Below are positions 39,165 through 56,600 of a stretch of DNA of 64,000 bases, piece by piece (the stretch's first letter is position 1; the number at the start of each line of letters is the position of its first letter). Origin of the DNA: a virus. The stretch lies in the IMG/VR virus record IMGVR_UViG_3300029788_000157, one strand, 5' to 3'. Below the pieces are notes generated by a model. It was not told the DNA's origin and made no database searches. It saw only the letters and a program-made list of their open reading frames with translations. The translations under genes were made by a program, and so were the position numbers.

Positions 39165-39959
39165 TTACATATATTCTAAACCAAGTTCTACAGAATAATA
39201 CATATCGGCTACTTCTTCATCCTGTAAACCGATATATTTCATTGTTACCTGTGTGCTGGAATGACTAAAGCAACATTGTAACATAACTAGAGCTTTCTGC
39301 TTATCTTTGGCATTATGCCAACACCAATAACCCCAGCTCTTTCTAAGACTATGAGAACCAATGTTCTGTACAATACCAGCTTCTTTTGCTGTATCACTTA
39401 TAATTCGCCACAACGATGCTACAACAATAGGTTTCTCTCCTTTTCTGGAGGTAAATAAATACTCATTAATATTATCGTAAGGATATTCAGATAAATAATC
39501 TTGTACTGCTTTTTTTACAGTCTGATTAAAATAGAGTTTAACGAATTTACCCTGTTTTCTCTGCTTCATCGGTTGTAATACATAGACATCTTTAAATGTA
39601 CCATCTTTATTCAAAAAGAATGACCATTTAAGTGTTCGCAAATCACTTGCACGAATCCCCACATTCATACCAATAAAAAATAGCAGTCTATTTCTATATG
39701 CAATCTGTCTTTTGTTATCGTCTGGTGCTTCTGCAATATGCTTATCAAATATCTGCACCATAGCAGCAATATCTTCCTCTGTCTTAAAAGCATAAACTTC
39801 AGAACTCTCTCCTGATTGTTTATTACAATGAGTACGCTTAACGCTGCCATCTTTATTATACAGTTTTTCGGGCTTTCTCTGGGCTTTCCCATCAACAACC
39901 ATAAGTTGAATCACATTTGAATTTTCACTCTGCTCAATAGCAGCGTTTGTTATATTCAT
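39165..39959 (-). CDS. tyrosine recombinase (phage integrase-family catalytic domain)
   Basis: Catalytic R in IRASDL, HSLRKSWG (HxxR) and a C-terminal Y in TMKYIG. Confidence 0.65.
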   Translation of the reverse strand: MNITNAAIEQSENSNVIQLMVVDGKAQRKPEKLYNKDGSVKRTHCNKQSGESSEVYAFKTEEDIAAMVQIFDKHIAEAPDDNKRQIAYRNRLLFFIGMNVGIRASDLRTLKWSFFLNKDGTFKDVYVLQPMKQRKQGKFVKLYFNQTVKKAVQDYLSEYPYDNINEYLFTSRKGEKPIVVASLWRIISDTAKEAGIVQNIGSHSLRKSWGYWCWHNAKDKQKALVMLQCCFSHSSTQVTMKYIGLQDEEVADMYYSVELGLEYM

Positions 39960-41229: not shown

Positions 41230-41730
41230 TTATATATTTTTATCACATTCAATTTCAGAATCATAATACCGCCATTTACCATCTGTATCCAGAAATACTC
41301 TTGTAAATGAATCATTCCCTGTTGCAATCACTTTACTATTCAGGTCTTTATACCGCTTTCGTTTCTGCTGCTCCTTCTGCAACTGTGATTCTTCAGCGGT
41401 CAGATTATATCTCCCTAATTGCTTAAATTGCTCTATCTGCACTGTAGAATATTGATGTGAGTTTACATCCTCCCAGAACAGCACTGTATTATCAATAATA
41501 ATATTACCAACATTGTCTCTGTGTGGTTCTGATGCCTGTTCTGGTTTTCTGTATTTTCCATTAGCAAGATTCTTCATGAACTGGTTATTACTGCAATCAG
41601 GATTTAATATGTCTTTCTGTATCAGCTCTCTGTTCTGCCAGTTCTCCGCTGGTATCACTGGTGTACACTTTTCCTGTATCAGTTCTTTACCAGCAAACAA
41701 AACTCCAATTATCCCCAACATATCAAACAT
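41230..41730 (-). CDS. hypothetical secreted/membrane-anchored protein
   Basis: N-terminal hydrophobic segment. Confidence 0.4.
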   Translation of the reverse strand: MFDMLGIIGVLFAGKELIQEKCTPVIPAENWQNRELIQKDILNPDCSNNQFMKNLANGKYRKPEQASEPHRDNVGNIIIDNTVLFWEDVNSHQYSTVQIEQFKQLGRYNLTAEESQLQKEQQKRKRYKDLNSKVIATGNDSFTRVFLDTDGKWRYYDSEIECDKNI

Positions 41731-41776
41731 AATCTCACATCCTTCCTATAAAATCTCAATTTTAAGTGTTCAATCC

Positions 41777-41797
41777 TTACTATTAAGGTTATACGCT
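41777..41797 (+). promoter_or_regulatory. motif A in plus orientation without a downstream plus-strand ORF
   Basis: cttactattaaggttatacgc. Confidence 0.35.
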
Positions 41798-41885
41798 AAA
41801 TAAATAATAGCATATAAATTACCTTAAATCAAGTCCTTTTAAAACAAAAAGGGATAAAGCCTTAAACTTTATCCCTTTGCCTTTT
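41798..41885 (+). ncRNA. candidate small RNA (motif A followed ~50 nt later by an intrinsic terminator; no ORF)
   Basis: Plus-oriented motif A at 41777..41797, then hairpin AAAGGGATAAAGCCTTAAACTTTATCCCTTT and a T-run; both flanking genes are on the minus strand. Confidence 0.25.
41848..41878. terminator. bidirectional intrinsic terminator hairpin AAAGGGATAAAG-CCTTAAA-CTTTATCCCTTT
   Basis: GC-containing stem flanked by A-runs and T-runs on either side. Confidence 0.5.
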
Positions 41886-42099
41886 ATTCCTCTTCGGTTG
41901 TATCTCCCAAGTCTACACTCAGGTTGTTGGATTTTCCGAACTTCAATGTAAATTCTCCATCTGCAAACTGCTTCATGAATGTTTCAATAATAATATTCAT
42001 ATTGATACCTGACTCTTTGCAAGTGTCCTTGAAAGCTGCCAGAACCTCTTCATTGATGGTAGTATTTAACATTGCTCTCTTAGGTTTAATACTAGCCAT
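41884..42099 (-). CDS. small hypothetical protein
   Basis: Start set at MASIKPKR, preceded by SD GAAGGAGAA. Confidence 0.35.
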   Translation of the reverse strand: MASIKPKRAMLNTTINEEVLAAFKDTCKESGINMNIIIETFMKQFADGEFTLKFGKSNNLSVDLGDTTEEE

Positions 42100-42175
42100 G
42101 TTTAGTTCTCCTTCGATAATTTTTTTATGGACTATACAATCTTCCATAATAGATTAACTATATGATACCATACAT

Positions 42176-42194
42176 TCATGTAGATTGCAAGCAT
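42176..42194 (-). promoter_or_regulatory. sigma-A-type promoter (TTGCAA-N17-TATCAT), operator variant
   Basis: tcatgtagattgcaagcat. Confidence 0.4.
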
Positions 42195-42223
42195 ATTTTA
42201 TAAATTTTCCATGATGTACCAAT

Positions 42224-42640
42224 TTATCGAACAGGTTTACTAATTTTGCATCTGGAAATGTAATATTTTGCTAATTGAAAGATATTTCTAATTTCCTGAA
42301 AAGCTGCAATCAGAACGTCAGACATAGATACTTCGTCATAATCTTCTTCGTACTCATCGTCATATTCTTCCAGCTCATCTTCTAATTCGTACTCATCTGC
42401 TTCACACTCAAAGAAATAATCATCCATCCAATATTTCTCTTTTGTAAAAATCAATATGAGTCCAAACGGTATAGATAATAGAGCTATTGTCCAGTCATTT
42501 CCCTGAATTTCTTCATTATAAAGTAATCCAGAATTGCATACAACAATAGTTCCTACTATTGTTACCACTCCAATGAATTTTTGTTTGAGGAAATAGAATT
42601 TTTCCTTCAGTTCCCTCTCTCTCTCAGATTCTTCGTACAT
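42224..42640 (-). CDS. membrane protein with acidic C-terminus
   Basis: Two TM segments followed by an E/D/Y-rich tail. Confidence 0.4.
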   Translation of the reverse strand: MYEESERERELKEKFYFLKQKFIGVVTIVGTIVVCNSGLLYNEEIQGNDWTIALLSIPFGLILIFTKEKYWMDDYFFECEADEYELEDELEEYDDEYEEDYDEVSMSDVLIAAFQEIRNIFQLAKYYISRCKISKPVR

Positions 42641-42667
42641 TTTCCTTTCCTCACTTTCAACAATTTC

Positions 42668-42695
42668 CCCACTCTGCTTTCATACTGACTTGTGA
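42668..42695 (-). promoter_or_regulatory. motif C (gene-strand GTCACAAG-N16-GAGTGG), candidate alternative-sigma promoter
   Basis: ccactctgctttcatactgacttgtgac. Confidence 0.4.
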
Positions 42696-42753
42696 CAGTT
42701 AATCTTCCAGATTAGTAGCATTAAGGAAGCACACATTTCCATGTGTGCTATAG

Positions 42754-42775
42754 TGTATAACTTTAACTATTATCA
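42754..42775 (-). promoter_or_regulatory. motif A (variant), followed by motif C and then a gene
   Basis: tgtataactttaactattatca. Confidence 0.3.
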
Positions 42776-43092
42776 ACTAATTTTCCAGCCTTATATAATT
42801 CCTGTTTGTATCTTCTATGTTCCCTTTGAGTCGCAGCCCATTCTTCCTTCGATGGTTTATATCTTCCATCCGCTTTTCTTTCTTTGAGTTGTTGTGCTGC
42901 TACTTCGGCTTTCTCAGGAAAAAGAATGAAACTTATTAAACGTCTTGACACATTGTATTCTCTTGCCAATGCTCTTTGAGAGAAAATTCCAAGCTCATAC
43001 TTATGTCTTATTTCATCTTTCTGTTCGTCTGATAATTTAACCCTTCTATCCTGTTCTCTTGATAATTTGATTCTTTCTGATTTGTATGGCAT
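42763..43092 (-). CDS. HTH DNA-binding protein
   Basis: FSQRALAREYNVSRRLISFIL helix-turn-helix. Confidence 0.5.
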   Translation of the reverse strand: MPYKSERIKLSREQDRRVKLSDEQKDEIRHKYELGIFSQRALAREYNVSRRLISFILFPEKAEVAAQQLKERKADGRYKPSKEEWAATQREHRRYKQELYKAGKLVDNS

Positions 43093-43094
43093 AG

Positions 43095-43445
43095 TTATTT
43101 CTCCCTTACTATATAATTCCTTGTATTATTCTCATCACGCTCAACGATTTTATCCGCTTTATGATTAAGTAACATCTTTATATGTAATCTACTTGTTTCT
43201 GCTTTTAAAAAGCCCTCAGACCTTAATTCTTTCATAGTTTTTCCAGACAGTAGATACAATCTATCTGTTACTTTCTGATACTGTAAAGCAATCAAACAAT
43301 TTCCATAGCAACCTTTATACCAAGGATAACCATGTTCGTCTGTCTGCTCCTTATCGGACAAATCAGCCATACATAATTTTTCCAGAGAATCATTATAATA
43401 AAGTACATAATCTATTCCATCTAACTCTTTATATGCCATTATCAA
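43095..43445 (-). CDS. hypothetical protein
   Basis: 116 aa; SD AAAGGAGAAA before the ATG. Confidence 0.4.
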   Translation of the reverse strand: MIMAYKELDGIDYVLYYNDSLEKLCMADLSDKEQTDEHGYPWYKGCYGNCLIALQYQKVTDRLYLLSGKTMKELRSEGFLKAETSRLHIKMLLNHKADKIVERDENNTRNYIVREK

Positions 43446-43698
43446 TTTCTCCTTTTATCTCATAGATTGGATGGAAGAGATAGTTAGACTAGCCATGTAC
43501 CGTAGCACTCCACATATTCGCCCCATATCTAGTTTGTCAGGCTTTAGAAACCCTCTCCACTGTATATCAGTTACCTTTTATACCATTCAACCTTTTCCTT
43601 GTAAGCATATCGGATACTTTGGATTTTCCGATGTAGCTTTAATGGATAGGTTTTATCCTATCCACCCATCAGCTTTTATGCTCTGCCTTTGCAGCTTT

Positions 43699-43920
43699 TC
43701 AATCATCAATTAAAACTTCTAAAAATTCTAAATATTTTGCAATTTCTTTTCTGCACTCTAAAAGACCTTCCTCTAATTCTTTTTGTTTTCCTTCATATTC
43801 AAGTGCGAGTCTTTTATTATTACTTATTTTTAACATTTCACAAGTTTCTCTATTATATTTCATATCCAAAACAAGCCTGTGTTCTTCTTTAAGTAACATT
43901 AACAATGATTTATTTAACAT
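43699..43920 (-). CDS. hypothetical coiled-coil protein
   Basis: 73 aa; hammerhead ribozyme HH4 sits in its 5' leader. Confidence 0.4.
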   Translation of the reverse strand: MLNKSLLMLLKEEHRLVLDMKYNRETCEMLKISNNKRLALEYEGKQKELEEGLLECRKEIAKYLEFLEVLIDD

Positions 43921-43955
43921 CTTTCTTCCTCCTTACCTTTTACTGTAGATGTTAT

Positions 43956-44020
43956 CCATCCGACTAGCTGAATTATTCCAGCTAGTTTCGTGCCATTTCA
44001 GGACTACTCATCAGGGATGT
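43956..44020 (-). ncRNA. type I hammerhead ribozyme (HH4, irregular helix II)
   Basis: RNA ACAUCC-CUGAUGA-GUAGUCC..GGCAC-GAAAC-UAGCUG GAAUAAUU CAGCUA-GUC|GGAUGG. Confidence 0.55.
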
Positions 44021-44425
44021 TTAGAAATTGATTGAAAGACCTTTGATTTCTTCCTTAATCTGTTCTGCTAATTCTTCTGTAAGCTCAACCTCATCATTCC
44101 AAACTTCTTCCACGCATTTACACTGACCAATCAGATTTGCACAACCTTCAATAATCATACAAACCATCCATGCTTCAGGATTTTCAAAGGGATTCTGAGA
44201 TACCGAACCATAATTTTCCATCTGATAATCATACACTTCAGCAGCTTCATCAAACCATTCTTTAATGTAATCCATAGCTTTTTGTCTACTGAAAGTAGCA
44301 CTACCATTTACATTGATTTCTTCCGTTAAGGTGCTTGATAAATCACAACCATAGACATCTGTTCCAACATACGCATCCAGATTATCAACGATAAAGTCCT
44401 TACAATATTCTTCAAAAGTTTCCAT
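44021..44425 (-). CDS. acidic hypothetical protein
   Basis: Start at the second ATG, preceded by SD GGAGGA. Confidence 0.4.
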   Translation of the reverse strand: METFEEYCKDFIVDNLDAYVGTDVYGCDLSSTLTEEINVNGSATFSRQKAMDYIKEWFDEAAEVYDYQMENYGSVSQNPFENPEAWMVCMIIEGCANLIGQCKCVEEVWNDEVELTEELAEQIKEEIKGLSINF

Positions 44426-44547
44426 AAATTTATCCTCCATCTTTTTAATTTTCCATTCAACAATTCAGTTAAAGTAGGTACAGGAAGCACCTTCTGGTGC
44501 TTACCTTCCAGTGCTTCCTCCTGATTTCATCTAAAGAAATTTTCCAG

Positions 44548-44712
44548 TTACTTTGTATCTGGAATGTTCAAATAGAATCCATCAGTTTTTGGTTCTGTTG
44601 AGATTTCTTCCATTGGCTTGTCTGCATCCATTAAGGCTTTCTTGATTGTTACACAACCAACTGTTACCTCAAGTATGTAATATCCATCGGATTTTTCCTC
44701 AAGCTTTCCCAT
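44548..44712 (-). CDS. small hypothetical protein
   Basis: Start set at the internal MGKLEE because motif C and SD AAGGAGG occupy the upstream part of the track ORF. Confidence 0.35.
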   Translation of the reverse strand: MGKLEEKSDGYYILEVTVGCVTIKKALMDADKPMEEISTEPKTDGFYLNIPDTK

Positions 44713-44739
44713 ACTGGTGTACCTCCTTTTCCTAAATTC

Positions 44740-44768
44740 TCCACTCTGCATCTTTATGGGCTTGTGAC
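44740..44768 (-). promoter_or_regulatory. motif C (spacing 16)
   Basis: ccactctgcatctttatgggcttgtgac; SD AAGGAGG and ATG follow. Confidence 0.4.
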
Positions 44769-44807
44769 CATTTGGAATTTCTTCCAAGCTGCATTAAAGA
44801 AAAGGGA

Positions 44808-44838
44808 ATGGATTATTTTTCCATTCCCTTACTTATGA
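44808..44838 (-). terminator. intrinsic terminator (AAGGGAATGG..CCATTCCCTT + U-run on the minus strand)
   Basis: Hairpin followed by T/A-runs. Confidence 0.5.
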
Positions 44839-44994
44839 TTATTTCGACCAGACACAATCAACTAATTCTCCATCATCGTCATACTCAAAAATTTCTGTGA
44901 TATTAGAATTTTCCGCTGCTTTCTGTTTTGCTTCTTCCAAGCTCTCTGCTCTATCTAAAGCATAATCATTACCATCTTCCAGTGAGTACCACAT
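44839..44994 (-). CDS. small acidic protein (51 aa, not in ORF track)
   Basis: ATG..TAA frame MWYSLEDGNDYALDRAESLEEAKQKAAENSNITEIFEYDDDGELVDCVWSK, followed by the terminator hairpin at 44808. Confidence 0.3.
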   Translation of the reverse strand: MWYSLEDGNDYALDRAESLEEAKQKAAENSNITEIFEYDDDGELVDCVWSK

Positions 44995-45004
44995 AATTTT
45001 CCTC

Positions 45005-45676
45005 CTATGCCATTGCTAATTGTCTGCTACTAATTGCATTTCTTCCAACTCTGTTACCTTCAGCTCTTGATTCTTCCGCATAATAGCTTCTTGCTTTGAT
45101 TCTATTATTGATTTTCTTAGCATCTTTTGTTCTTTCCGCATAGCCTTCATTAACTTCTTGCGGTACAACAATCATTAAAGCTGTACACTGTTTATCCAGA
45201 ACTTCAGATATTCCTTCCAAAAATCCAACCAAAAAGCAATTCTTAATGCCTGTTCCATCAAAGAATCTTCCACATCTCACAGCTTCATTTCTCATTTTAT
45301 TATAGAAATTTGTAGCAGCTTTATTTCCTGTCTTGAAAAGGAATTTAAAAGTTTCCGCTGCAATCTCTGCATCAACTTCATATCCATAAAAGACAACTGT
45401 AGATTTTCCGTAAAAGAAATGTCTACATCTGAAGTTCTTTGCAATTATTCCAGCTAATGTATATTTCCACTTGCTTCCAGTTCCTATGCTAACAGATTTT
45501 TCCACAATGCTATCAATATCTTCCACCTCATCGACTTCACTCATAGAAATATGATATTCAGCCATAAGCTTTTGAGCTTTTAAAGCTGCTGATTTAGCTT
45601 CTTCCTCTGAAGGATTGTTTCTTGAAAGCTCCAGCACCTTTTTGATTTTCGCAATGATTTTTTCCGTATCCATCAT
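45005..45676 (-). CDS. DUF2786-like protein
   Basis: N-terminus MMDTEKIIAKIKKVLELSRN...EEEAKSAALKAQKLMAEY; SD GGAGGA upstream. Confidence 0.4.
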   Translation of the reverse strand: MMDTEKIIAKIKKVLELSRNNPSEEEAKSAALKAQKLMAEYHISMSEVDEVEDIDSIVEKSVSIGTGSKWKYTLAGIIAKNFRCRHFFYGKSTVVFYGYEVDAEIAAETFKFLFKTGNKAATNFYNKMRNEAVRCGRFFDGTGIKNCFLVGFLEGISEVLDKQCTALMIVVPQEVNEGYAERTKDAKKINNRIKARSYYAEESRAEGNRVGRNAISSRQLAMA

Positions 45677-45724
45677 AAGTTTTTCCTCCAACCTTTTCAC
45701 TATTTTTATTCCACTCTGTATTTC

Positions 45725-45755
45725 TCATCAAGGCTTGTGACTTGCATTGGCTACA
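45725..45755 (-). promoter_or_regulatory. motif C (spacing 19)
   Basis: ccactctgtatttctcatcaaggcttgtgac. Confidence 0.4.
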
Positions 45756-45789
45756 TTAGAATTTTTCCAAATAAAAAAGGAAGCTGCTT

Positions 45790-45813
45790 TTACACAACTT
45801 CCTTTTCCGTATT
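45790..45813 (-). terminator. intrinsic terminator GGAAGUUGUGUAAAAGCAGCUUCC + U-run (minus strand)
   Basis: Hairpin followed by CCTTTTTTATTT. Confidence 0.4.
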
Positions 45814-45893
45814 GATATTGATTATTGAGTTACTTTTTCGATTTCATTCATCTCTGAAAATTCCAGAGGACAAATAGTAGCTTTATTTTCCAT

Positions 45894-46175
45894 CTAAATT
45901 TCTTCCATTGGATTTCCTTTAATAATTGTATAATCATTAGCTTCTAAACATTCTTCCAGTCCTTCTTTGAAGAAATACTGGATAACTGTTTCTGTCTGTA
46001 CATCTTCAGAAAATTCTTCCGCTGGTTGCCATCCATTATGTTTCCAACCGCAAACTAACTCAAGATTGTAATGTAATGAATCATATCCATCATACCCTTC
46101 ATAAGATACGACTTTATATACCAACTTATCTTCATTCTGCACATAGAGTTTTTTATTTTCCAAATATACTCTCAT
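45894..46175 (-). CDS. hypothetical protein
   Basis: 93-aa ORF. Confidence 0.4.
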   Translation of the reverse strand: MRVYLENKKLYVQNEDKLVYKVVSYEGYDGYDSLHYNLELVCGWKHNGWQPAEEFSEDVQTETVIQYFFKEGLEECLEANDYTIIKGNPMEEI

Positions 46176-46482
46176 AAAAGCCCTCCTTATCTATTGGCTT
46201 GAAATTTTCCAATTAAACCCTCCCACTTTCATGTATGTGGTAACTTCCGTTCTTCCTTTAGGTGTAAAAGAAATTTTCCATCTTTGTCCATCAGAGCCAC
46301 CGCACATTTCGGATGCATGGTTGACTGTACTTTTCTTTTTACACTGAAAACCTAGTGGATGCTATTCTCTTAACAATTAGTAGGACTAGGCGGTGTTCAG
46401 TTGTCGGATTTTCCATCAAGATAAACTACCTTGATTTTAACAATTTTTCCAACCAATATCAATACCTTTTATCTTCTTTTCT

Positions 46483-46510
46483 CCACTCTGCATTTACAAG
46501 GGCTTGTGAC
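46483..46510 (-). promoter_or_regulatory. motif C (spacing 16), immediately after the terminator at 46548
   Basis: ccactctgcatttacaagggcttgtgac. Confidence 0.4.
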
Positions 46511-46547
46511 CTTTAGTGTATAAAATTCTCCACTAGCTGCATTAGAG

Positions 46548-46564
46548 AAGGCGGTTGTCTACCG
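46548..46564 (-). terminator. intrinsic terminator GGCGGUAGACAACCGCC-UUCUCU (minus strand)
   Basis: GC-rich stem plus a U-rich tail, followed by motif C. Confidence 0.5.
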
Positions 46565-46574
46565 CCAAATCTCT

Positions 46575-46667
46575 TTAATCTTCCAGTAAGCTATCTAACA
46601 ACCTGTTTACTTTTTCCATGTCGTTGTTGTCTGCTGCTTCCAGAATATCATCAATGATTTTTTCCAT
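46575..46667 (-). CDS. small ORF (30 aa) translationally coupled to the upstream lipoprotein gene via ATGA overlap
   Basis: MEKIIDDILEAADNNDMEKVNRLLDSLLED; its ATG overlaps the upstream TGA; followed by terminator GGCGGTAGACAACCGCC. Confidence 0.3.
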   Translation of the reverse strand: MEKIIDDILEAADNNDMEKVNRLLDSLLED

Positions 46668-47113
46668 CAGTTATCAACCTCTCTGTCAATTACATAATCA
46701 AATCTTTCCAGAATATCATCCGTATAGTTTGTATCAGGATTGTAAATGAAGTAAGTTAAAATTGTATCGCCTTCCTGAAAATCTTCCACACTTCTATATG
46801 AAATGTAATAATAATCAGGGTCAGCACAATTCAAAACTCTTCCATCTCCATCAGAATTTTCCACAACCCCAATGCACTTTTCAATGATGATTTTTCCTTT
46901 TCGATTTTCCAAATCTTCCAGACTTAAATCAGCACTATCAATTATTTCAATAGCACCGATTTCTTCCGAAAGTTCTCTGTAAAAGTCCAAAGAATCAGAC
47001 TTAAAAGAACCAGCTTCTACCTTTACAGGTTCTACTGCTTTAGTATTGCATCCAGAAAATACTCCAGTCGCAACCATAGTTATCATTGATAATACAAGAA
47101 ATTTTTTCCTCAT
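46667..47113 (-). CDS. putative lipoprotein
   Basis: Signal peptide with lipobox VFSGC; hammerhead HH1 in its leader. Confidence 0.5.
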   Translation of the reverse strand: MRKKFLVLSMITMVATGVFSGCNTKAVEPVKVEAGSFKSDSLDFYRELSEEIGAIEIIDSADLSLEDLENRKGKIIIEKCIGVVENSDGDGRVLNCADPDYYYISYRSVEDFQEGDTILTYFIYNPDTNYTDDILERFDYVIDREVDN

Positions 47114-47147
47114 AATAAATTCTCCTTTTCCTTATTCAGTTTGTAGT

Positions 47148-47230
47148 TTCCTACGACAAGCGGAAGAGGTTAGGAAGGTAGAAACTTCCGCTTGTTTCGG
47201 CTGGTTACCATCCAGCTCTCATCAGGTAGG
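47148..47230 (-). ncRNA. type I hammerhead ribozyme (HH1)
   Basis: RNA UCCCUAC-CUGAUGA-G(A)GCUGG..CCAGCC-GAAAC-AAGCGGAAG..CUUCCGCUUGUC|GUAGG. Helix III is an 11-bp hairpin; the GUC cleavage site is followed by the helix I 3' strand. Confidence 0.7.
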
Positions 47231-47237
47231 GAATTGG

Positions 47238-47522
47238 TTAGATTTCCACTATAACTGTTTTTCCATCATCAACAAAACTTCCACGACCGCCAAAATTTTC
47301 TCCAGCGATTTCATAATATTTCCTTCCATTAGAAAGTGTTTTTACTTCACAAGTTGCCTTTTGCAACCAATATAAAACTTCCTTCCTAGTGTTTGGATTT
47401 TCTGGCAATCCCATTTTAAGGAGAATTTTCCTTGCAAGTCCTTCTGTTTTATTCTTCAGTGATGTTTTAACAAAAACATCCTTGCTTCCCAGTGGAAATG
47501 TAAATCCATTCATAATATCCAT
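47238..47522 (-). CDS. hypothetical protein
   Basis: Start at MDIMNG with SD AAAGGAGAAAAAAG; the upstream part of the track ORF overlaps HH2. Confidence 0.4.
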   Translation of the reverse strand: MDIMNGFTFPLGSKDVFVKTSLKNKTEGLARKILLKMGLPENPNTRKEVLYWLQKATCEVKTLSNGRKYYEIAGENFGGRGSFVDDGKTVIVEI

Positions 47523-47544
47523 CTTTTTTCTCCTTTTATCTTTA

Positions 47545-47608
47545 TTTGTGGATTCCCACGACACTCCCAACTTCGGGAGTGTTTCGGCTGCTATCCCTGT
47601 CAGCCATC
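47545..47608 (-). ncRNA. type I hammerhead ribozyme (HH2, one extra U between A9 and helix II)
   Basis: RNA CCCAC-CUGAUGA-U-GGCUG..CAGCC-GAAAC-ACUCCC GAAGUU GGGAGU-GUC|GUGGG. Confidence 0.6.
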
Positions 47609-47619
47609 ATCAGGTGGGG

Positions 47620-48063
47620 TTAGAGTTCTTCTAACTCTTCTTTCAGCTCGTCAATACGTTCCTTGACATCTGCTATCTTTTCTTGTAAATCATCATAAGA
47701 TTCTTTGTAATCTTCATCCCAGAGTTCTTTACGTTCCCAGTCAGCGATACCAATACATTCATCATCGTATTCTGTCTGAAGGTCTGCTACTTCTTCATTA
47801 AGGTCTGATAACTCTTCTTCTGCTTCGTCAATTTCTCCCTGAATTTCACTTTCAGTTCGCAAACCTACCCAACTATAAATCTCATCAGCTTCAAACCATA
47901 ACAGGTCATTTAGTTCTGTTTCGGTCATACCATCAGGGTATGTATCTTCTAAAACTGACTCCAGCTCTTCACATTTCCCTTCACGTTTGATTCTATCTAA
48001 TGTATCAATCGCTCCACTCCATGCCTTAAAAGAGTTTAAATCTAATTCATAAGTAATAGTCAT
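47620..48063 (-). CDS. acidic coiled-coil protein
   Basis: Start at MTITYELD with SD AAAGGAAGG; the upstream part of the track ORF is HH3. Confidence 0.4.
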   Translation of the reverse strand: MTITYELDLNSFKAWSGAIDTLDRIKREGKCEELESVLEDTYPDGMTETELNDLLWFEADEIYSWVGLRTESEIQGEIDEAEEELSDLNEEVADLQTEYDDECIGIADWERKELWDEDYKESYDDLQEKIADVKERIDELKEELEEL

Positions 48064-48096
48064 AATATTTACCTTCCTTTTCCTATATTTGGGTAT

Positions 48097-48158
48097 AATC
48101 CCGACTCCCTGATATTCAGGGAGTTTCGTCTTAATTTTCAAAGACTCATCAGGGGATT
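48097..48158 (-). ncRNA. type I hammerhead ribozyme (HH3)
   Basis: RNA AAUCCC-CUGAUGA-GUCUU UGAAAAUU AAGAC-GAAAC-UCCCUGA AUA UCAGGGA-GUC|GGGAUU; all three helices are canonical. Confidence 0.75.
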
Positions 48159-48416
48159 TTATGCAACTCTTATAACTTCATCTAAATAGATTCTTAAAGA
48201 ACCTTTTCTGATAAAAGCTCTACCAGAAGTTGAGTAGTGTACCATATGTTTATGAAAACCCCACTCATTTTCGCCATTATGCCAACTGCATACATAATCA
48301 CAATCGTATTTATCATTTTCATCAGGTTCGTAAACCTGAAGTCCAAAAGTACCACTGATATATGCAGCTCCTACTGGTTTCTGATTTGCGTATCTTTTAT
48401 ACATAGCTTCCTTCAT
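48159..48416 (-). CDS. hypothetical protein
   Basis: 85-aa ORF with a structured leader. Confidence 0.4.
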   Translation of the reverse strand: MKEAMYKRYANQKPVGAAYISGTFGLQVYEPDENDKYDCDYVCSWHNGENEWGFHKHMVHYSTSGRAFIRKGSLRIYLDEVIRVA

Positions 48417-48528
48417 TTTTATTTACCTTCCTTTTTACCTTTTTATAGGGTTTTCCCTACCCCATCCCCGAAGGGATGGACGCTTGCAACCTAAAGGGCT
48501 ATTTATACACGTTGCAACGTGTTATAAT

Positions 48529-48549
48529 GTATAACCTTAATAGTTATGC
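48529..48549 (-). promoter_or_regulatory. motif A, followed by a 16-bp palindrome and two hairpins before the gene
   Basis: tgtataaccttaatagttatg. Confidence 0.4.
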
Positions 48550-48843
48550 TAAACAAGAATCATCACAAATATCTTTGTTATCAATAGCTTTTTCAATAGC
48601 TTTCTTGTTTACACTCCAGCCTAAAAACTGATATAAGAACTGATACAAGTATTTCATAGTAGTTACACTATAATCCCAGTCTCTACCCAGTGTGAGCTTC
48701 GCAGCTCCCTCTTTTGAGTTGTCAATGATTGCAATAGTGCTGTCATAAGACTGGAATACAATTCTAGTATCATCTCTGATAATAAACTGATTTGCTACTT
48801 CTCTACCACTTCTTGAGCTTGTCATGTTTTCAACTTTCATCAT
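48544..48843 (-). CDS. hypothetical protein
   Basis: Start at ATGATG after SD AAGGAAGG; motif C and motif A lie upstream. Confidence 0.4.
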   Translation of the reverse strand: MMKVENMTSSRSGREVANQFIIRDDTRIVFQSYDSTIAIIDNSKEGAAKLTLGRDWDYSVTTMKYLYQFLYQFLGWSVNKKAIEKAIDNKDICDDSCLA

Positions 48844-48886
48844 AATTTTATACCTTCCTTTTTTATAATCTCTTTTTACTTTGTAG

Positions 48887-48917
48887 CCACTCACATTTTT
48901 ACAATCGGACTTGTGAC
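48887..48917 (-). promoter_or_regulatory. motif C (spacing 19)
   Basis: ccactcacatttttacaatcggacttgtgac. Confidence 0.35.
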
Positions 48918-49013
48918 CGCCTTCGGTATGTTTAACCCTGATAAGATTTTACACGTATTGCAAATAGTATATACGCAACTTATAACCACATGGGTAGCAC
49001 TCAACTATTTTAG

Positions 49014-49035
49014 TGTATAACCTTATCAGTTAGTA
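49014..49035 (-). promoter_or_regulatory. motif A, followed by motif C and then a gene
   Basis: gtgtataaccttatcagttagt. Confidence 0.4.
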
Positions 49036-49216
49036 AAAAGATAAAAGGAAAAGGAATATTCACTTTCCTGAAGCGTTACTTTCTAAAGTGGACAAGTCAC
49101 ACCTTATACGGACTACTTCAGGCACTTATTAAGTTATCAATGTGCAGTTACAAACAACTTTTTGCTTCGCTTAATTGCTTTGCTTTGTTCTTTGTATCTT
49201 TATACTATCATATCTT

Positions 49217-49234
49217 TATGTAGTTGTCAAGTAG
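49217..49234 (-). promoter_or_regulatory. sigma-A-type promoter overlapping operator; first of two tandem leftward promoters at the hub
   Basis: tatgtagttgtcaagtag. Confidence 0.45.
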
Positions 49235-49368
49235 TTATTTTAACTTTTTTAAAAAGTTTTTTGCTGCTTTTCAACTGCTTTTTATATGATGTTTTAAAGG
49301 TACTTTACAACTCCGCTTTGTTTTCTTGCGTTGTCTTGTTTGTTTGTAGCTTTATATTATCATGCTTT

Positions 49369-49388
49369 TATGTAGTTGTCAACTACAA
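49369..49388 (-). promoter_or_regulatory. sigma-A-type promoter (TTGACA-N17-TAATAT) within the palindromic operator; second tandem leftward promoter
   Basis: tatgtagttgtcaactacaa. Confidence 0.45.
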
Positions 49389-49439
49389 ATTTATATTTTT
49401 TTCAATTTATTTTTTGGGGTTGTTTTTCTGCTTTTATTC

Positions 49440-51200
49440 TTTCCAGATTATTATATATAATTTGTTTCTGCTTTTCTTTTCTATGGGGTTTATTTAAGCT
49501 TTAAAGGGCTTTTATTGTTTTAATGTATATTATATAGGGTTATGGGGTTATATTGATTGTATAGGGCTTTAAAGGCTTTTAAAGGGGTATAAAGGTATAT
49601 AATAGGGCTTGTATAGGTGTATAAGGTTGTACAATGATATAAAAGGGATATAAAGCAGCATACAAGGGATATAAAAGGGCTTCAGGGGGTGGAGCTGGAA
49701 AGAATGAAAAGAGGAAAAGAAAAGAAAATATAATTGCTTTATTGTTTGGGTTTATGGGGTATGGTATGAGGTGGAGGGGTGGACTGTATAAGGGTATAAA
49801 GTGGAGATTATAGGGTTGTTTGTGGGTATGTTTAGGTGTATTTGTGGGGGTTGTATGGTATTATATGGGGTTATATTTATATAAAAGTGGGGGAAAGTAT
49901 GGAAAAATGGGAGTTTTTTGTGGGTTTTTAGCTGCTTTTTTGTGTGGGAGTGGGTGGAAGTCTGGAAAGTTTGGAAGGGGTGGAGGGTGTAAAGGGGTTT
50001 ATTTTATGGGGTTATGGAAGTATCTATATAAATTTTTTGAGCTGGAAAGAATAAAATAATAATCGTTATTATTTTCTGAAAACTTCTATATTTGTTATAC
50101 ATATAGTTATGAATACTATATGAAACAATATTCTATACTATGGGAGGGGGTATTTATATAAATTGAATGTGATAAAAACACAGTCTTTCACATTGAAAAA
50201 ATTAAATCCTTAAAACAAGGGGGTAGGGGGCTATTTTACAAATATTTTTTGATTTGAGCCGACCAGCAGCCGACTGTCTGATAAAACTCTTCCCAACCAA
50301 AAAATTTTTTACACTTATCTTTCATTCTAAATCATCCCAAATCATCCCAAATTACTAAAAATCATCAACATATAACCTAACATTATCTCAACACTCAATC
50401 CACTATTCTCCCTTTATCACATCAACATATATCTTTATGCACAACGGTACAATCAACGGTACAAATCCATCTCTTACTCTCTTATTTACCAAATTATCTA
50501 TCAGAAATCATCTGTTTTTCCTGAATCATATTCCAAATTACAATTCATTCCAACTTATTTACACTACAATCAATATACCAATCTAATCTCATTCTATTTC
50601 AAGCCTAACAAATACCCTCTTATCTTATCCTATCTAAAATACCTAATTTATAATACCATTTAATACTATCTCAACATTCTTAAATAGTTCCAAATATTCA
50701 AACTTAATATCCAGAATATTATTATTCCTCTTTTATTCTTCCTCTATCTCTCTTACCAGAACCGATTCAAATAGCTCAAATTAATCATATGAAACAATCC
50801 AATATCAACTACATTCTAACTACAAGTATATTTTAATCCTTCGCCAGAGAACTTTATTTAACAGAATCTTTATTAAAAAGTATTTAAAATAAAGTTCTAT
50901 TTTTGCTTCTACCGTTAATTATTTCCGTTAATTTATATTCTACCTTAATTTCAATACTTTCTAAATTTTTACCGTCTAATTCGATTTTACATAAAATAAA
51001 GTAATATGGTTTTTACCGTTATTTTCAATCATTTTCGAAGTTATTCATAGGTATCCAATAAGTATCTATTCGTAAGTATCTATTCATTCTTAACTATTCA
51101 TCAAATACTTTGATTACTTTACATAGGTTACTTCCTAAATTTGAGAAAAATCTCGTATAATAATTTTAGGCATCACTTTTAATGTCACATGGCAACAAGA
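49440..51200. other. non-coding hub with mirrored strand composition: plus strand is C-poor and G-run-rich to ~50230, then G-poor and C/A-rich; contains iteron-like short repeats. Candidate replication origin / divergent early control region.
   Basis: No credible ORF over 2.3 kb. G-runs (ggggtggagggtgtaaagggg) on the left; atcccaaatcatcccaaat, ggtacaatcaacggtacaa, gtaagtatctattc x2 and taccgtt repeats on the right. Leftward and rightward gene blocks diverge from here. Confidence 0.5.
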
Positions 51201-55953: not shown

Positions 55954-56026
55954 GGCTCTATGGTATAAAGGCAATTATATCCGACTGTCTCTCGGAAGAT
56001 TTGGGTTCGATTCCCAATAGAGTCGC
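55954..56026 (+). tRNA. tRNA-Asp (GTC)
   Basis: Hand-folded: acceptor GGCTCTA/TAGAGTC, anticodon loop CTGTCTC. Confidence 0.55.
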
Positions 56027-56084
56027 TTATTGGAATGTAGTTCAACAAAAGTTGGATGATTTCGTTCCAATTATTCCCTTATAG

Positions 56085-56147
56085 CTCAGTTGGTAGAGCG
56101 TCTGGCTGTTAACCAGAATGTCACAGGTTCAAGTCCTGTTGGGGGAG
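56085..56147 (+). tRNA. tRNA-Asn (GTT)
   Basis: D-arm AGCTCAGTTGGTAGAGC, anticodon loop CTGTTAA, T-loop TTCAAGT. Confidence 0.55.
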
Positions 56148-56152
56148 CTTAT

Positions 56153-56224
56153 AGGAAGTTGGTGTAATGGCAACACAACAGTCTCCAAAACTGTAAGTTT
56201 AGGGTTCGAATCCTTAACTTCCTG
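56153..56224 (+). tRNA. tRNA-Trp (CCA)
   Basis: Acceptor AGGAAGT/ACTTCCT, anticodon loop CTCCAAA. Confidence 0.6.
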
Positions 56225-56230
56225 TTTTAT

Positions 56231-56314
56231 GGGCGAGTATGCAAAATGGTGAAGCGAGCTGACTGTAAATCAGTGACGTAAGATACATTGTGGGTTCGAA
56301 TCCTACCTCTCCCA
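56231..56314 (+). tRNA. tRNA-Tyr (GTA), long variable arm
   Basis: Anticodon loop CTGTAAA, long variable arm, T-loop TTCGAAT. Confidence 0.5.
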
Positions 56315-56320
56315 TTTATA

Positions 56321-56400
56321 GTGAAAGTATTTTAAAAGTAGAATATCCGAATTTATGAATAAGACAACGGAAGGTAGAGGTTCAAATCCTCTCTTTCACT
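56321..56400 (+). tRNA. tRNA-like gene with aberrant/expanded anticodon arm (isotype unassigned)
   Basis: Perfect 7-bp acceptor GTGAAAG/CTTTCAC and T-arm AGAGG-TTCAAAT-CCTCT, but the region between is 8 nt too long for a standard anticodon arm. Confidence 0.3.
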
Positions 56401-56405
56401 AATTT

Positions 56406-56488
56406 GCTGGTGTGGTGGAATTGGCAGACACATTGGGTTTAAGCCCCAATTGCATATAGCAGTACGAGTTCAAATCTCGTCACCAGCA
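56406..56488 (+). tRNA. tRNA-Leu (TAA), long variable arm
   Basis: Acceptor GCTGGTG/CACCAGC, anticodon stem TTGGG/CCCAA with loop TTTAAGC. Confidence 0.55.
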
Positions 56489-56522
56489 TTGTGCTTCTCT
56501 ACATAATGAGAACCTTTATTTT

Positions 56523-56593: not shown

Positions 56594-56600
56594 TTTCTAT

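What the first reader, a model, noticed from the sequence alone, without database searches (positions are those of the whole stretch)
43956..48158. Four type-I hammerhead ribozymes in the 5' leaders of consecutive small leftward genes
Four sites (43956..44020, 47148..47230, 47545..47608, 48097..48158) carry, on the minus strand, the complete hammerhead architecture. The order is helix I 5' strand, CUGAUGA, helix II hairpin, GAAAC, helix III hairpin, GUC, helix I 3' strand. HH1 and HH3 have fully canonical cores. HH2 has one extra U after A9. HH4 has an irregular helix II. Each is placed so that self-cleavage after GUC leaves a 35 to 45-nt 5'-OH leader that runs straight into a strong SD and the start codon of gene 46667..47113, 47238..47522, 47620..48063 or 43699..43920. 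The ORF-track N-termini of three of these genes overlap the ribozymes, so their true starts are the internal Mets. This looks like ribozyme-mediated processing of a polycistronic early or anti-defense transcript into monocistronic mRNAs.
Basis: seen in the sequence. Interest (0 to 1): 0.8.

Follow-up and report, generated by a model that had tools for sequence, protein, structure and literature searches.

The report
Phage operon punctuated by ten ribozymes
The four hammerhead self-cutting RNAs are real, and they belong to a denser cluster (five twister and one pistol ribozyme were missed) that sits between the small genes at the start of a large SPbeta-like phage's leftward operon. This arrangement is already known but functionally unexplained, and it most likely chops the long transcript into one- or two-gene messages.

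Summary
All four claimed sites are complete type-I hammerheads on the minus strand. A descriptor finds exactly these four, against 0.19 loose and 0 equally strong hits per shuffled window. All four fold as three-way junctions. Homologues in unrelated phages and cyanobacteria keep the core while helices I and III covary.

No Rfam hammerhead model reaches its gathering score. That reflects model sensitivity: my own covariance model scores them at 49-76 bits.

The same 6.3 kb (42666..48938) also holds one pistol (above Rfam threshold) and five twister-P1 ribozymes whose pseudoknots covary. That makes ten ribozymes of three classes, and nine of them end 25-40 nt before an SD+ATG.

The ribozyme class differs at orthologous gene starts in relatives, and some relatives have no ribozyme there.

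This is the ribozyme/phage-gene neighbourhood described in 2011-2015. Processing of polycistronic phage RNA was proposed then and is still unproven. "Anti-defense" has no support.

Verdict: real, a new member of a known kind, and a good model locus. Interest is moderate.

The parts
49354..49382 (-). sigma-70-type extended -10 promoter-like site (TTGACA-17-TAATAT with TG), distal copy of a tandem pair
   Evidence: sequence
49202..49230 (-). sigma-70-type extended -10 promoter-like site (TTGACA-17-TAGTAT with TG), proximal copy; likely start of the leftward early unit
   Evidence: sequence
48884..48938 (-). twister-P1 ribozyme (twister-5, minimal form); predicted cleavage U48934|A48933; ends 40 nt before the ATG at 48843
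   Evidence: Rfam RF03160 only 24.1 bits. Own model R2 gives 55.7 bits. P2, the hairpin and both pseudoknots pair. Map.
48544..48843 (-). gene, 99 aa, phrog_21575 (unknown function)
48455..48522 (-). pistol ribozyme; predicted cleavage G48460|U48459; leaves a 43-nt leader to the ATG at 48416
   Evidence: Rfam RF02679 62.6 bits against gathering 34.5
48159..48416 (-). gene, 85 aa, phrog_17101 (unknown function); its L010 homologue is preceded by a hammerhead instead of a pistol
48097..48158 (-). type-I hammerhead HH3, canonical; cleavage C48103|G48102; starts 0 nt after the upstream stop; 39-nt leader
   Evidence: (75.9 bits); homologues in crAss-like and Agathobaculum phages
47620..48063 (-). 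gene, 147 aa, phrog_5149 (unknown function, acidic coiled-coil C-terminus); true start is the internal ATG at 48063
   Evidence: N-terminus conserved from this ATG in L016-L025
47555..47618 (-). type-I hammerhead HH2 with U inserted between A9 and G10.1; cleavage C47560|G47559; 37-nt leader
   Evidence: (48.9 bits); the same U-insert variant occurs as complete hammerheads in cyanobacteria
47238..47522 (-). gene, 94 aa, no family; replaced by a different gene in L016 and L017 between HH2 leader/ATG and HH1
47150..47230 (-). type-I hammerhead HH1 (bulged A in stem II, 18-nt loop III); cleavage C47155|G47154; 41-nt leader
   Evidence: (56.6 bits)
46575..47113 (-). two overlapping genes: 148-aa predicted lipoprotein-like protein (46667..47113) and a 30-aa ORF (46575..46667)
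46480..46566 (-). hairpin (46550..46566) followed by twister-P1 ribozyme twister-4 (46480..46548); cleavage U46544|A46543
   Evidence: Rfam 64.4 bits, E 4e-13; R2 66.6 bits; hairpin
46211..46412 (-). conserved non-coding block of unknown nature downstream of twister-4
   Evidence: 92.6-98% identical in L016, L017 and six more contigs, while the L017 flanks differ. Single-base indels break the only ORF. No Rfam hit and no covariation available.
45894..46175 (-). gene, 93 aa, phrog_3653 (unknown function); replaced in L016
45708..45806 (-). terminator-like hairpin (about 45775..45806, identified by eye) followed by twister-P1 ribozyme twister-3 (45708..45762); cleavage U45758|A45757; ends 31 nt before the ATG at 45676
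   Evidence: Rfam 42.5 bits, E 8e-7; R2 70.6 bits
44839..45676 (-). DUF2786/DUF7168 protein (45005..45676, 223 aa) and a coupled 51-aa ORF (44839..44994)
   Evidence: PF23771 E 3e-20, PF10979 E 5e-14; phrog_421
44738..44830 (-). terminator-like hairpin (44802..44830) followed by twister-P1 ribozyme twister-2 (44738..44800); cleavage U44796|A44795; ends 25 nt before the ATG at 44712
   Evidence: Rfam 59.2 bits, E 1e-11; R2 60.1 bits; hairpin
44021..44712 (-). genes of 54 aa (44548..44712) and 134 aa (44021..44425), separated by a 122-nt spacer with an unassigned hairpin
43957..44019 (-). type-I hammerhead HH4 (irregular stem II); cleavage C43962|G43961; 41-nt leader
   Evidence: (62.7 bits); the L027 homologue has CUGACGA, varying at the one free core position
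43699..43920 (-). gene, 73 aa, no family
42666..42748 (-). hairpin (42729..42748, identified by eye) followed by twister-P1 ribozyme twister-1 (42666..42727); cleavage U42723|A42722; ends 25 nt before the ATG at 42640
   Evidence: Rfam 53.4 bits, E 6e-10; R2 67.2 bits
42224..42640 (-). gene, 138 aa, no family; last gene preceded by a ribozyme

Best explanation
The 6.3-kb start of the leftward (probably early, host-RNAP-driven) operon of an SPbeta-like phage is punctuated by ten cis-acting self-cleaving ribozymes: 4 type-I hammerheads, 1 pistol and 5 twister-P1. As the long transcript is made, each ribozyme folds and cuts itself. This converts the polycistronic RNA into about ten units of one or two genes.

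The two cleavage topologies give equivalent end products.
- Hammerhead and pistol cut near their own 3' end. The compact ribozyme stays as a structured 3' terminus with a 2',3'-cyclic phosphate on the upstream message, starting 0-7 nt after the stop codon for the hammerheads. The downstream message begins with a 5'-OH and a 37-43-nt leader that carries a very strong SD 21-27 nt from the new end.
- Twister-P1 cuts at its 5' edge. The ribozyme stays as a 5' structured cap on the downstream message, and a dedicated hairpin placed just upstream becomes the 3' end of the upstream message.

The likely benefit is that each accessory-gene cassette gets its own defined ends. Its stability and translation then do not depend on whatever neighbours it has in this highly mosaic region.

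Shown here: the identity and architecture of the ribozymes, the positional rules, the interchangeability of classes, and the mosaicism.
Inferred: that cleavage occurs in vivo, that the transcript is polycistronic, and what cleavage does for stability or expression.
For: Identity:
- Descriptor finds 4 sites against 0.19 loose and 0 strict hits in shuffles.
- MFE three-way junctions, z -2.9 to -4.2.
- Invariant core with covarying helices: 92.9% of cells paired against about 40% in slid controls, and 17 of 20 pairs change on both sides.
- Homologues found by sequence or synteny alone have different but paired helices I and III.
- Own model R1 scores the sites at 49-76 bits and finds no others in the window.
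- Pistol is above Rfam gathering.
- Twisters have E 1e-13 to 1e-6, and both pseudoknots are 100% paired with compensatory changes that Rfam's model cannot score.

Arrangement:
- All ten are on the coding strand in intergenic gaps, and 9 of 10 end 25-40 nt before an SD+ATG.
- Hammerheads abut the upstream stop at 0-9 nt in 15 of 17 cases, and end 32-44 nt before the ATG across independent phages.
- Four of five twisters are preceded by a hairpin.
- Tandem promoters lie upstream.

Cleavage itself, rather than the motif, appears to be what matters:
- The 85-aa gene is preceded by a pistol here and by a hammerhead in L010.
- The DUF2786 gene is preceded by a twister here and in L010, and by a hammerhead in L014/L015.

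Ends logic: in B. subtilis a 5' hairpin or a ribosome-binding site near the 5' end stabilises long downstream mRNA (review PMC3997798).

Precedent: clustered prophage hammerheads cleave in vitro and in E. coli, and were proposed to process phage polycistronic RNA (PMC3088659).
Against: - There are no cleavage or transcript data for this locus.
- No hammerhead or twister here reaches its Rfam gathering score.
- The stem I / loop II tertiary contacts needed for fast cleavage at cellular Mg2+ were not established.
- Relatives express the same genes with no ribozyme upstream (L018-L025; L004-L007, L009, L011, L012), so cleavage is dispensable for expression of those genes.
- In Firmicutes a 5'-OH end can be an entry site for RNase J1, as for glmS (PMC3997798), so cleavage could destabilise rather than stabilise.
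- Predicted SD accessibility barely changes on cleavage in 7 of 9 cases, so there is no general SD-unmasking effect.
- Terminator-like hairpins before two twisters could mean that some downstream units are not reached by read-through.
- Function has remained undetermined in the field since 2011 (PMC6765202).
Confidence: 0.62

Rival explanations
1. Cleavage serves as a decay or down-tuning signal rather than a maturation step. The 5'-OH ends created by the hammerhead and pistol ribozymes are entry points for RNase J1, as with glmS. This would limit the lifetime or dose of accessory-gene messages and make early expression transient.
For: RNase J1 degrades the 5'-OH product of glmS in B. subtilis (PMC3997798). 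The phage is SPbeta-like, so it has a Firmicute host. The same genes do without a ribozyme in relatives, as expected for a tuning element.
Against: The leaders carry unusually strong SDs 21-27 nt from the new 5' end, and the twisters leave a structured 5' cap. Both are known 5' stabilisers in Bacillus. The conserved 25-40-nt spacing to the ATG suggests the downstream message is meant to be used.
Confidence: 0.17
2. The ribozyme-plus-leader units are mainly conserved linker or boundary sequences that travel with, or promote recombinational exchange of, accessory-gene cassettes. This would be analogous to the promoter/stem-loop cassettes of T4-type phages. Their RNA cleavage activity would be of little selective value to gene expression.
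For: Against the 93-99% identical L016, genes at 47507..47231, 46181..45827 and 45666..45007 are replaced. The breakpoints fall at the HH2 leader/ATG, at the first base of HH1 (47230) and at the twister-3 leader/ATG. In L017, HH2 plus leader and hairpin plus twister-2 are isolated islands of 95% and 81% identity between unrelated genes. The HH3 core and stem II are almost identical in crAss-like, Agathobaculum and IMG/VR phages.
Against: Every catalytic nucleotide is preserved and the helices covary, which indicates selection on the fold and not only on sequence identity. Other breakpoints lie at ordinary intergenic sites without ribozymes. Three unrelated folds recur at equivalent positions, which argues for selection on cleavage.
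Confidence: 0.12
3. Cassettes flanked by two ribozymes are released with 5'-OH and 2',3'-cyclic-phosphate ends and are then joined by an RtcB-type ligase into circular or rearranged RNAs.
For: The end chemistry of ribozyme products matches RtcB substrates (established biochemistry). Seven gene units here are flanked on both sides by ribozymes.
Against: Perreault et al. looked for spliced or circular products from clustered hammerheads and found none (PMC3088659). No ligase or end-healing enzyme was detected in the window. The genes have ordinary stops and SDs.
Confidence: 0.04
4. The hammerhead-like matches are chance occurrences of CUGAUGA...GAAA in A/G-rich sequence, as the lack of Rfam hits above threshold would suggest.
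For: No Rfam hammerhead family reaches its gathering score. CTGATGA is common on this strand, with 18 copies.
Against: 0 of 100 shuffles give one comparable hit, let alone four. The other 14 CTGATGA sites are coding and lack the fold. Covariation and conserved homologues exist in many phages. The sites co-locate with a pistol and five twisters.
Confidence: 0.01

Closest known systems
Clustered prophage hammerhead ribozymes (Perreault et al. 2011, PMC3088659: Clostridium scindens, Azorhizobium caulinodans, Agrobacterium tumefaciens ardA locus)
   Same: Several hammerheads in the sense strand flank single genes or short gene blocks of phage origin. The catalytic core is canonical, with rare tolerated variants. 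Processing of long phage transcripts into gene-length mRNAs was proposed, and cleavage was shown in vitro and in E. coli.
   Different: Here all four are type I and are interleaved with two other ribozyme classes, giving ten ribozymes in 6.3 kb. The host is an SPbeta-like phage with a YonO-like RNA polymerase. This locus has not been tested experimentally.
Ribozyme-associated gene neighbourhoods used to discover twister-sister, hatchet and pistol (Weinberg et al. 2015, as summarised in PMC4604425 and PMC6765202)
   Same: Hammerhead, twister and pistol genes lie near each other and near phage genes, mostly in Firmicutes and metagenomes. The view there is that efficient cleavage, not the particular motif, is what is needed. 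Function is undetermined.
   Different: This locus adds explicit positional rules: stop-to-hammerhead 0-9 nt, ribozyme-to-ATG 25-44 nt, and a hairpin before each of four twisters. It also gives direct examples of class replacement at orthologous gene starts. I could not read the 2015 paper, so I cannot say whether these rules were already noted.
RAGATH-1 hammerhead (Rfam RF03152) and Hammerhead_3 (RF00008)
   Same: HH3 aligns to the RAGATH-1 model over helix I, the core, CGAAAC and helix III (33.9 bits), with a similar A-rich tract 5' of helix I.
   Different: It scores below gathering (56.3) and lacks the model's upstream hairpin. HH1, HH2 and HH4 do not hit any Rfam hammerhead model.
Hammerhead of haloarchaeal viruses HF1/HF2 upstream of the first early ORF (described in PMC3088659)
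   Same: The ribozyme is in the 5' region of an early polycistronic viral transcript, and the mapped 5' end lies within 3 nt of the predicted cleavage site.
   Different: That case is a single ribozyme at the transcript 5' end in an archaeal virus, not an array between cistrons.
Synthetic ribozyme insulators such as RiboJ (from my own knowledge, not checked here)
   Same: A self-cleaving ribozyme is placed between upstream sequence and the RBS, so that the downstream message has a fixed 5' end independent of context.
   Different: Those are engineered parts. Here the arrangement is natural, repeated, and uses three folds.

Membership tests
Hammerhead ribozyme | Catalytic core C3-U4-G5-A6-N7-G8-A9, G12-A13-A14, A15.1-U16.1 pair, and H17 (not G) at the cleavage site | tested here: met
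   All four have CUGAUGA, GAAA, A15.1-U16.1 and C17. HH2 has one U inserted after A9, a variant also found in five complete cyanobacterial hammerheads.
Hammerhead ribozyme | Three helices around the core with intact core-adjacent pairs (N1.1-N2.1, N10.1-N11.1), supported by covariation | tested here: met
   G1.1-C2.1 and G10.1-C11.1 are present in all four. MFE folds give the three-way junction. In the 11-sequence alignment 92.9% of cells pair against 37-42% in slid controls, and 17 of 20 pairs change on both sides. Caveat: several rows were picked by a descriptor that requires helices I and III. Rows found by BLAST or by a core-only pattern (L001, L002, L044-L049) also pair.
Hammerhead ribozyme | Type I topology: helix I open, helices II and III capped by loops | tested here: met
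Hammerhead ribozyme | Tertiary contact between stem I (bulge or flank) and loop II that gives fast cleavage at physiological Mg2+ | not tested
   I only inspected this by eye. No obvious loop II/flank pseudoknot was seen. Helix I of HH3 can be extended across an A.A mismatch.
Hammerhead ribozyme | Mg2+-dependent self-cleavage 3' of position 17, giving 2',3'-cyclic phosphate and 5'-OH | not testable with these tools
   Needs in vitro transcription or end-specific RNA-seq.
Hammerhead ribozyme | Operational rather than defining: score at or above the gathering threshold of an Rfam hammerhead model | tested here: not met
   There is no hit at gathering. HH3 alone gets 33.9 bits against 56.3 (RF03152) and 32.6 against 48.5 (RF00008). 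HH1, HH2 and HH4 have no hit even at E<=10.
Twister ribozyme, type P1 | Conserved nucleotides (UAA...GC...GUCnCAAGyC...GAGnG) with P1, P2, the internal hairpin and two pseudoknots | tested here: met
   93.7% of cells pair against 25-44% in slid controls. Both pseudoknots are 100% paired, with G-C to A-U and A-U to G-C or C-G exchanges. Five copies score 55.7-70.6 bits with own model R2.
Twister ribozyme, type P1 | Operational: Rfam RF03160 gathering score of 67.2 bits | tested here: not met
   Scores are 64.4, 59.2, 53.4, 42.5 and 24.1 bits (E 4e-13 to 0.15).
Pistol ribozyme | Match to the curated consensus (P1, P2, P3, conserved AUAAAUA, GCGU and the G-U cleavage dinucleotide) above Rfam gathering | tested here: met
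   RF02679 62.6 bits against 34.5, full-length match. Orthologues in L016, L017 and L008 score 62.6-66.1 bits.
Ribozyme-associated phage gene neighbourhood (Perreault 2011; Weinberg 2015) | Several self-cleaving ribozymes of one or more classes close together, on the coding strand, among phage genes | tested here: met
   Ten ribozymes lie in 42666..48938, all on the minus strand, between PHROG-matching genes. The phage is SPbeta-like. Related contigs such as L008 carry pistol, hammerhead and twister within 3 kb.

The most novel reading that the evidence does not exclude
Self-cleaving ribozymes act as portable, class-interchangeable cassette boundaries in the hypervariable accessory-gene region of SPbeta-like and other gut phages. 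Each unit (ribozyme, fixed-length leader, strong SD) would give any newly acquired gene defined 5' and 3' RNA ends, and so neighbour-independent expression. Its conserved sequence would also serve as the homology patch through which cassettes are swapped between phages. In effect this would be a natural plug-and-play insulator system.

The evidence here does not exclude it and partly points to it. Breakpoints fall at ribozyme edges, ribozyme islands lie between unrelated genes, the class is swapped at orthologous starts, and the stop/ATG spacing is constant.
Probability: 0.3. Interest if true: 0.65.

Novelty: new member of a known kind. Interest (0 to 1): 0.4.

Why it matters
The biological role of the hundreds of bacterial and phage hammerhead, twister and pistol ribozymes has been open since 2011-2015.

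This locus is an unusually dense and regular example. It has ten ribozymes of three classes, each at a fixed distance from a start codon. Natural "controls" exist in close relatives, where the same gene has a different ribozyme class or none at all.

That makes the question directly testable. One can compare transcript ends, half-lives and protein output for matched cassettes with hammerhead, twister, pistol or no ribozyme.

It also shows that Rfam thresholds miss most phage type-I hammerheads and twister variants, so annotation pipelines undercount such clusters.

Tried and rejected
- **Rfam as arbiter.** The gathering-level scan found no hammerhead. Permissive scans gave only sub-threshold hits for HH3. 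I rejected Rfam as a refutation after the descriptor, shuffle and covariation tests.
- **Extra hammerheads.** The 14 other minus-strand CTGATGA sites are all coding and lack the fold. Model R1 finds no more in the window.
- **Strict HH3 pattern in IMG/VR.** It returned only one locus, so I switched to protein-anchored loci.
- **Host identification.** An HH2-specific pattern in GTDB genomes gave no host, only cyanobacterial hammerheads with the same U insertion.
- **'Anti-defense' content.** Pfam and PHROGs gave only unknown-function families. PADLOC was not run.
- **SD unmasking by cleavage.** Predicted accessibility rises clearly only for the pistol and HH1 and is unchanged elsewhere. I rejected this as a general mechanism.
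- **Phage-encoded RNA ligase or end-healing enzymes.** None were found among the ten proteins scanned against NCBIfam and the ten against Pfam.
- **Conserved block 46211..46412 as a further ribozyme.** It has no Rfam hit. All homologues are >=92% identical, so no covariation test is possible.
- **Other ribozyme classes.** Hatchet, twister-sister and HDV-like gave no hit even at E<=10 in 41-51 kb.
- **Papers not held.** Weinberg 2015 and Felletti 2016/17 could not be read.

Full report
**Observation**

Reading the minus strand of 43600..48300 shows that all four sites have the order helix I 5' strand, CUGAUGA, stem-loop II, GAAA, stem-loop III, GUC, helix I 3' strand. A purpose-written descriptor requires CUGANGA, a closed stem II, GAAA, stem III of at least 4 bp closed by A15.1-U16.1, H17, and helix I of at least 4 bp. 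Run on both strands of the window, it returns exactly these four plus one junk hit with no stem II.

The true spans are:
- HH3: 48097..48158
- HH2: 47555..47618
- HH1: 47150..47230
- HH4: 43957..44019

Two of the four predicted 5' ends were wrong: the ends are 47559 and 47154, not 47549 and 47152.

In 100 dinucleotide-preserving shuffles the descriptor gives 0.19 hits per window. It never gives a hit with helix III of at least 9 bp and helix I of at least 5 bp, values that all four real sites reach. CTGATGA occurs 18 times on the minus strand against 2 on the plus strand. The other 14 minus-strand copies are read as xCU-GAU-GAx inside long ORFs and have no hammerhead fold. Each element's minimum-free-energy fold is the three-way junction, with z-scores of -2.9 to -4.2.

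**Rfam**

At gathering thresholds Rfam 15 reports no hammerhead. With permissive filters only HH3 appears, below threshold: RAGATH-1-hammerhead at 33.9 bits against 56.3, and Hammerhead_3 at 32.6 against 48.5.

I treat this as a sensitivity problem, for three reasons.
- BLAST of the region against phage genomes hits only the HH3 core, in a crAss-like phage and two Agathobaculum phages. Those copies fold as complete type-I hammerheads with the same core and stem II but unrelated, fully paired helices III.
- Protein-anchored loci from IMG/VR contain more type-I hammerheads on the coding strand. An 11-sequence alignment has an invariant core. It shows 92.9% paired cells against 37-42% when partners are slid, and 17 of 20 pairs change on both sides. 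This is partly circular, because several rows were chosen by the descriptor. The BLAST-derived rows are not.
- A covariance model built from that alignment scores the four window sites at 75.9, 62.7, 56.6 and 48.9 bits and finds nothing else in the window.

HH2's extra U after A9 is not a defect. A pattern specifying only the core plus stem II recovers six cyanobacterial loci, five of which the model scores as complete type-I hammerheads. They carry the same insertion and covarying helices I and III. A close homologue of HH4 has CUGACGA, varying at the one core position that is free to vary.

The same scans show that the hammerheads are a minority of the ribozymes present. A pistol ribozyme at 48455..48522 scores 62.6 bits against a gathering score of 34.5.

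Four twister-P1 matches sit just under a strict gathering score of 67.2. They are 46480..46548 (64.4 bits), 44738..44800 (59.2), 42666..42727 (53.4) and 45708..45762 (42.5), with E from 4e-13 to 8e-7. A weak fifth lies at 48884..48938.

I aligned these with three copies from relatives and wrote P1, P2, the internal hairpin and both pseudoknots on the alignment. This gives 93.7% paired cells against 25-44% in slid controls. The two pseudoknots are 100% paired and include G-C/A-U and A-U/G-C/C-G exchanges. Rfam's model cannot score pseudoknots, so this evidence is independent. A model built from the alignment finds exactly five twisters in the window, including the weak one at 55.7 bits.

The locus therefore holds ten ribozymes of three classes in 42666..48938, all on the minus strand.

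**Anatomy**

On the minus strand the order is:
1. Two nearly identical extended -10 promoter-like sites (49382..49354 and 49230..49202)
2. twister-5
3. 99-aa gene
4. pistol
5. 85-aa gene
6. HH3
7. 147-aa gene
8. HH2
9. 94-aa gene
10. HH1
11. 148-aa and 30-aa genes
12. hairpin plus twister-4
13. a 200-nt conserved non-coding block
14. 93-aa gene
15. terminator-like hairpin plus twister-3
16. DUF2786/DUF7168 gene and a 51-aa ORF
17. hairpin plus twister-2
18. 54-aa and 134-aa genes
19. HH4
20. 73-aa gene
21. two genes
22. hairpin plus twister-1
23. 138-aa gene

Nine of the ten ribozymes end 25-40 nt before an ATG preceded by a strong SD. The exception is twister-4, which is followed by the non-coding block.

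The hammerheads begin 0, 1, 7 and 1 nt after the upstream stop codon. Across 17 hammerheads from independent contigs the gap is 0-9 nt in 15. The distance from the ribozyme 3' end to the ATG is 32-44 nt wherever a start can be called.

Hammerhead (type I) and pistol cleave near their 3' ends. The ribozyme would therefore remain on the upstream RNA, and the downstream RNA would start with a 5'-OH and a 37-43-nt leader whose SD lies 21-27 nt from the end. Twister-P1 cleaves at its 5' edge, so it would remain on the downstream RNA. Four of the five twisters are immediately preceded by a hairpin that would become the 3' end of the upstream RNA.

**Comparative evidence**

The terminase is about 49% identical to those of SPbeta-group Bacillus phages. 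A 949-aa ORF matches Pfam RdRP PF05183 and phrog_8308, which is the YonO-type single-subunit polymerase. The window therefore comes from a large SPbeta-like phage. Related IMG/VR contigs are 80-165 kb.

L016 is 93-99% identical across 41527..49500 but has different genes in place of 47507..47231, 46181..45827 and 45666..45007. Homology breaks about 14 nt into the gene after the HH2 leader and resumes at the first base of HH1. It also breaks 9 nt into the DUF2786 gene after the twister-3 leader. In L017, HH2 plus leader and hairpin plus twister-2 are conserved islands between unrelated genes.

The ribozyme class is not fixed at a given gene.
- The 85-aa gene is preceded by a pistol here and by a hammerhead in L010.
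- The DUF2786 gene is preceded by a twister here and in L010, and by a hammerhead in L014/L015. It has no ribozyme in seven other loci.
- The 147-aa gene has a hammerhead here and in L016/L017, but is tightly coupled to its upstream gene in L018-L025.

**Mechanism**

The best-supported reading is co-transcriptional self-cleavage of a long leftward transcript into units of one or two genes with defined ends.

In Bacillus, a hairpin or a ribosome-binding site near the 5' end stabilises long downstream RNA (PMC3997798). The twister topology supplies the first of these, and the hammerhead and pistol topology supplies the second. That could explain why three unrelated folds are interchangeable.

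There are points against a simple stabilising role.
- RNase J1 degrades the 5'-OH product of the glmS ribozyme (same review).
- Relatives manage without ribozymes at the same genes.
- Predicted SD accessibility changes little on cleavage, except for the pistol and HH1.

A general "cleavage unmasks the SD" model is therefore not supported. None of the cleavage, polycistrony or stability steps is demonstrated for this locus.

**Relation to what is known**

Perreault et al. 2011 reported hundreds of bacterial hammerheads near prophage genes. Many were in clusters flanking single genes or short blocks. They proposed processing of long phage RNAs into operon- or gene-length mRNAs, and showed cleavage of three tandem arrangements in vitro and one in E. 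coli (PMC3088659).

The shared gene neighbourhood of hammerhead and twister was then used to discover pistol, hatchet and twister-sister (PMC4604425). A 2019 review states that the reason for the association is undetermined, and that polycistronic processing has been suggested but needs work (PMC6765202). I found no later paper resolving it.

This locus is therefore a new, dense and regular member of a known kind. The "anti-defense" label is unsupported, because the interleaved proteins match only DUF2786/DUF7168 and PHROGs of unknown function.

**Scores**

- Identity of the four hammerheads: about 0.95.
- The processing model as stated: 0.62.
- Interest: 0.4. A specialist would not be surprised by the class of phenomenon. 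The locus, with its natural variants, is nevertheless a convenient system for a question that has stayed open for more than a decade.

Noticed in passing
window 46211..46412 (-): A roughly 200-nt block downstream of twister-4 is 92.6-98% conserved in L016, L017 and six more IMG/VR contigs, although the L017 flanks are unrelated. Single-base indels break the only ORF, so it is probably a non-coding RNA. It has no Rfam match, and there is too little diversity to test a structure. A sigma-70-like promoter (46462..46434) lies between twister-4 and the block.
   Followed up: partly
window 49008..49024, 48522..48538, 42748..42764, 17624..17640, 20864..20880, 28391..28407 (all -); ORF 52517..55366 (+): The 17-mer AAGGTTATACACTATAG (extending 5' as TAAnTnnTAA) occurs 8 times against 0.33 expected, 7 of them on the minus strand. 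It resembles SP6/T7-type promoters. One copy abuts the 5' end of the pistol, and one is followed by a hairpin and twister-1. The window encodes a 949-aa YonO-like single-subunit RNA polymerase (PF05183, phrog_8308). The motif may be that polymerase's promoter, in which case some ribozymes would trim 5'-triphosphate leaders. It was found only in this phage and L016.
   Followed up: partly
window 28211..28362 (-) and 28548..29849 (-): A sub-threshold RAGATH-36 match (60.9 bits against 70) lies immediately 3' of a TnpB-family RNA-guided endonuclease gene (NF040570, E 6e-54). It is probably the TnpB guide (omega) RNA. Three tRNA genes (27577..28099) follow.
   Followed up: no
window 55954..57461 (+): An array of 16 tRNA genes lies directly after the YonO-like polymerase gene and before a 447-aa ORF with a weak metallophosphoesterase match.
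   Followed up: no
window 49450..50050: An ORF-free stretch is strikingly C-rich and G-poor on the minus strand, with repeated 'cccc(a/t)' and 'ccctt(t)at' words. It lies in the 2.4-kb divergent region between the leftward and rightward units. Its nature is unknown.
   Followed up: no
window 44426..44547 (-): A 122-nt spacer between two small genes contains a long imperfect hairpin (AGGAAGCAC...GUGCUUCCU) with no ribozyme or Rfam match. It is the only sizeable gap in the run without an assigned element, apart from 43446..43698.
   Followed up: no
window 43465..43584: A 120-nt segment is present here and absent from the otherwise 97% identical L016. It is bounded by about 20 nt that align to both sides in L016, suggesting a short direct repeat and a small insertion or deletion.
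   Followed up: no
L044-L049 (cyanobacterial genomes: Microcoleus, Anabaena, Trichormus, Oscillatoriales MAGs): These carry complete type-I hammerheads with the same U insertion between A9 and G10.1 and the same GGCUG/CAGCC stem II as HH2, but different helices I and III. This is a recurrent natural core variant shared between gut-phage and cyanobacterial sequences.
   Followed up: partly
window 31196..32803, 33647..34867, 37826..39040, 39165..39959 (all -): Downstream of the ribozyme run lie a flotillin-like protein, a pentapeptide-repeat (Qnr/MfpA-like) protein, a GmrSD_N-domain protein and a tyrosine integrase. This accessory and lysogeny cargo is typical of a temperate phage.
   Followed up: no
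L008 409..3208 (+): A divergent relative carries a pistol (409..477), a hammerhead (673..746) and a twister (3152..3208) within 3 kb. Three-class clusters are therefore common in this phage group.
   Followed up: partly
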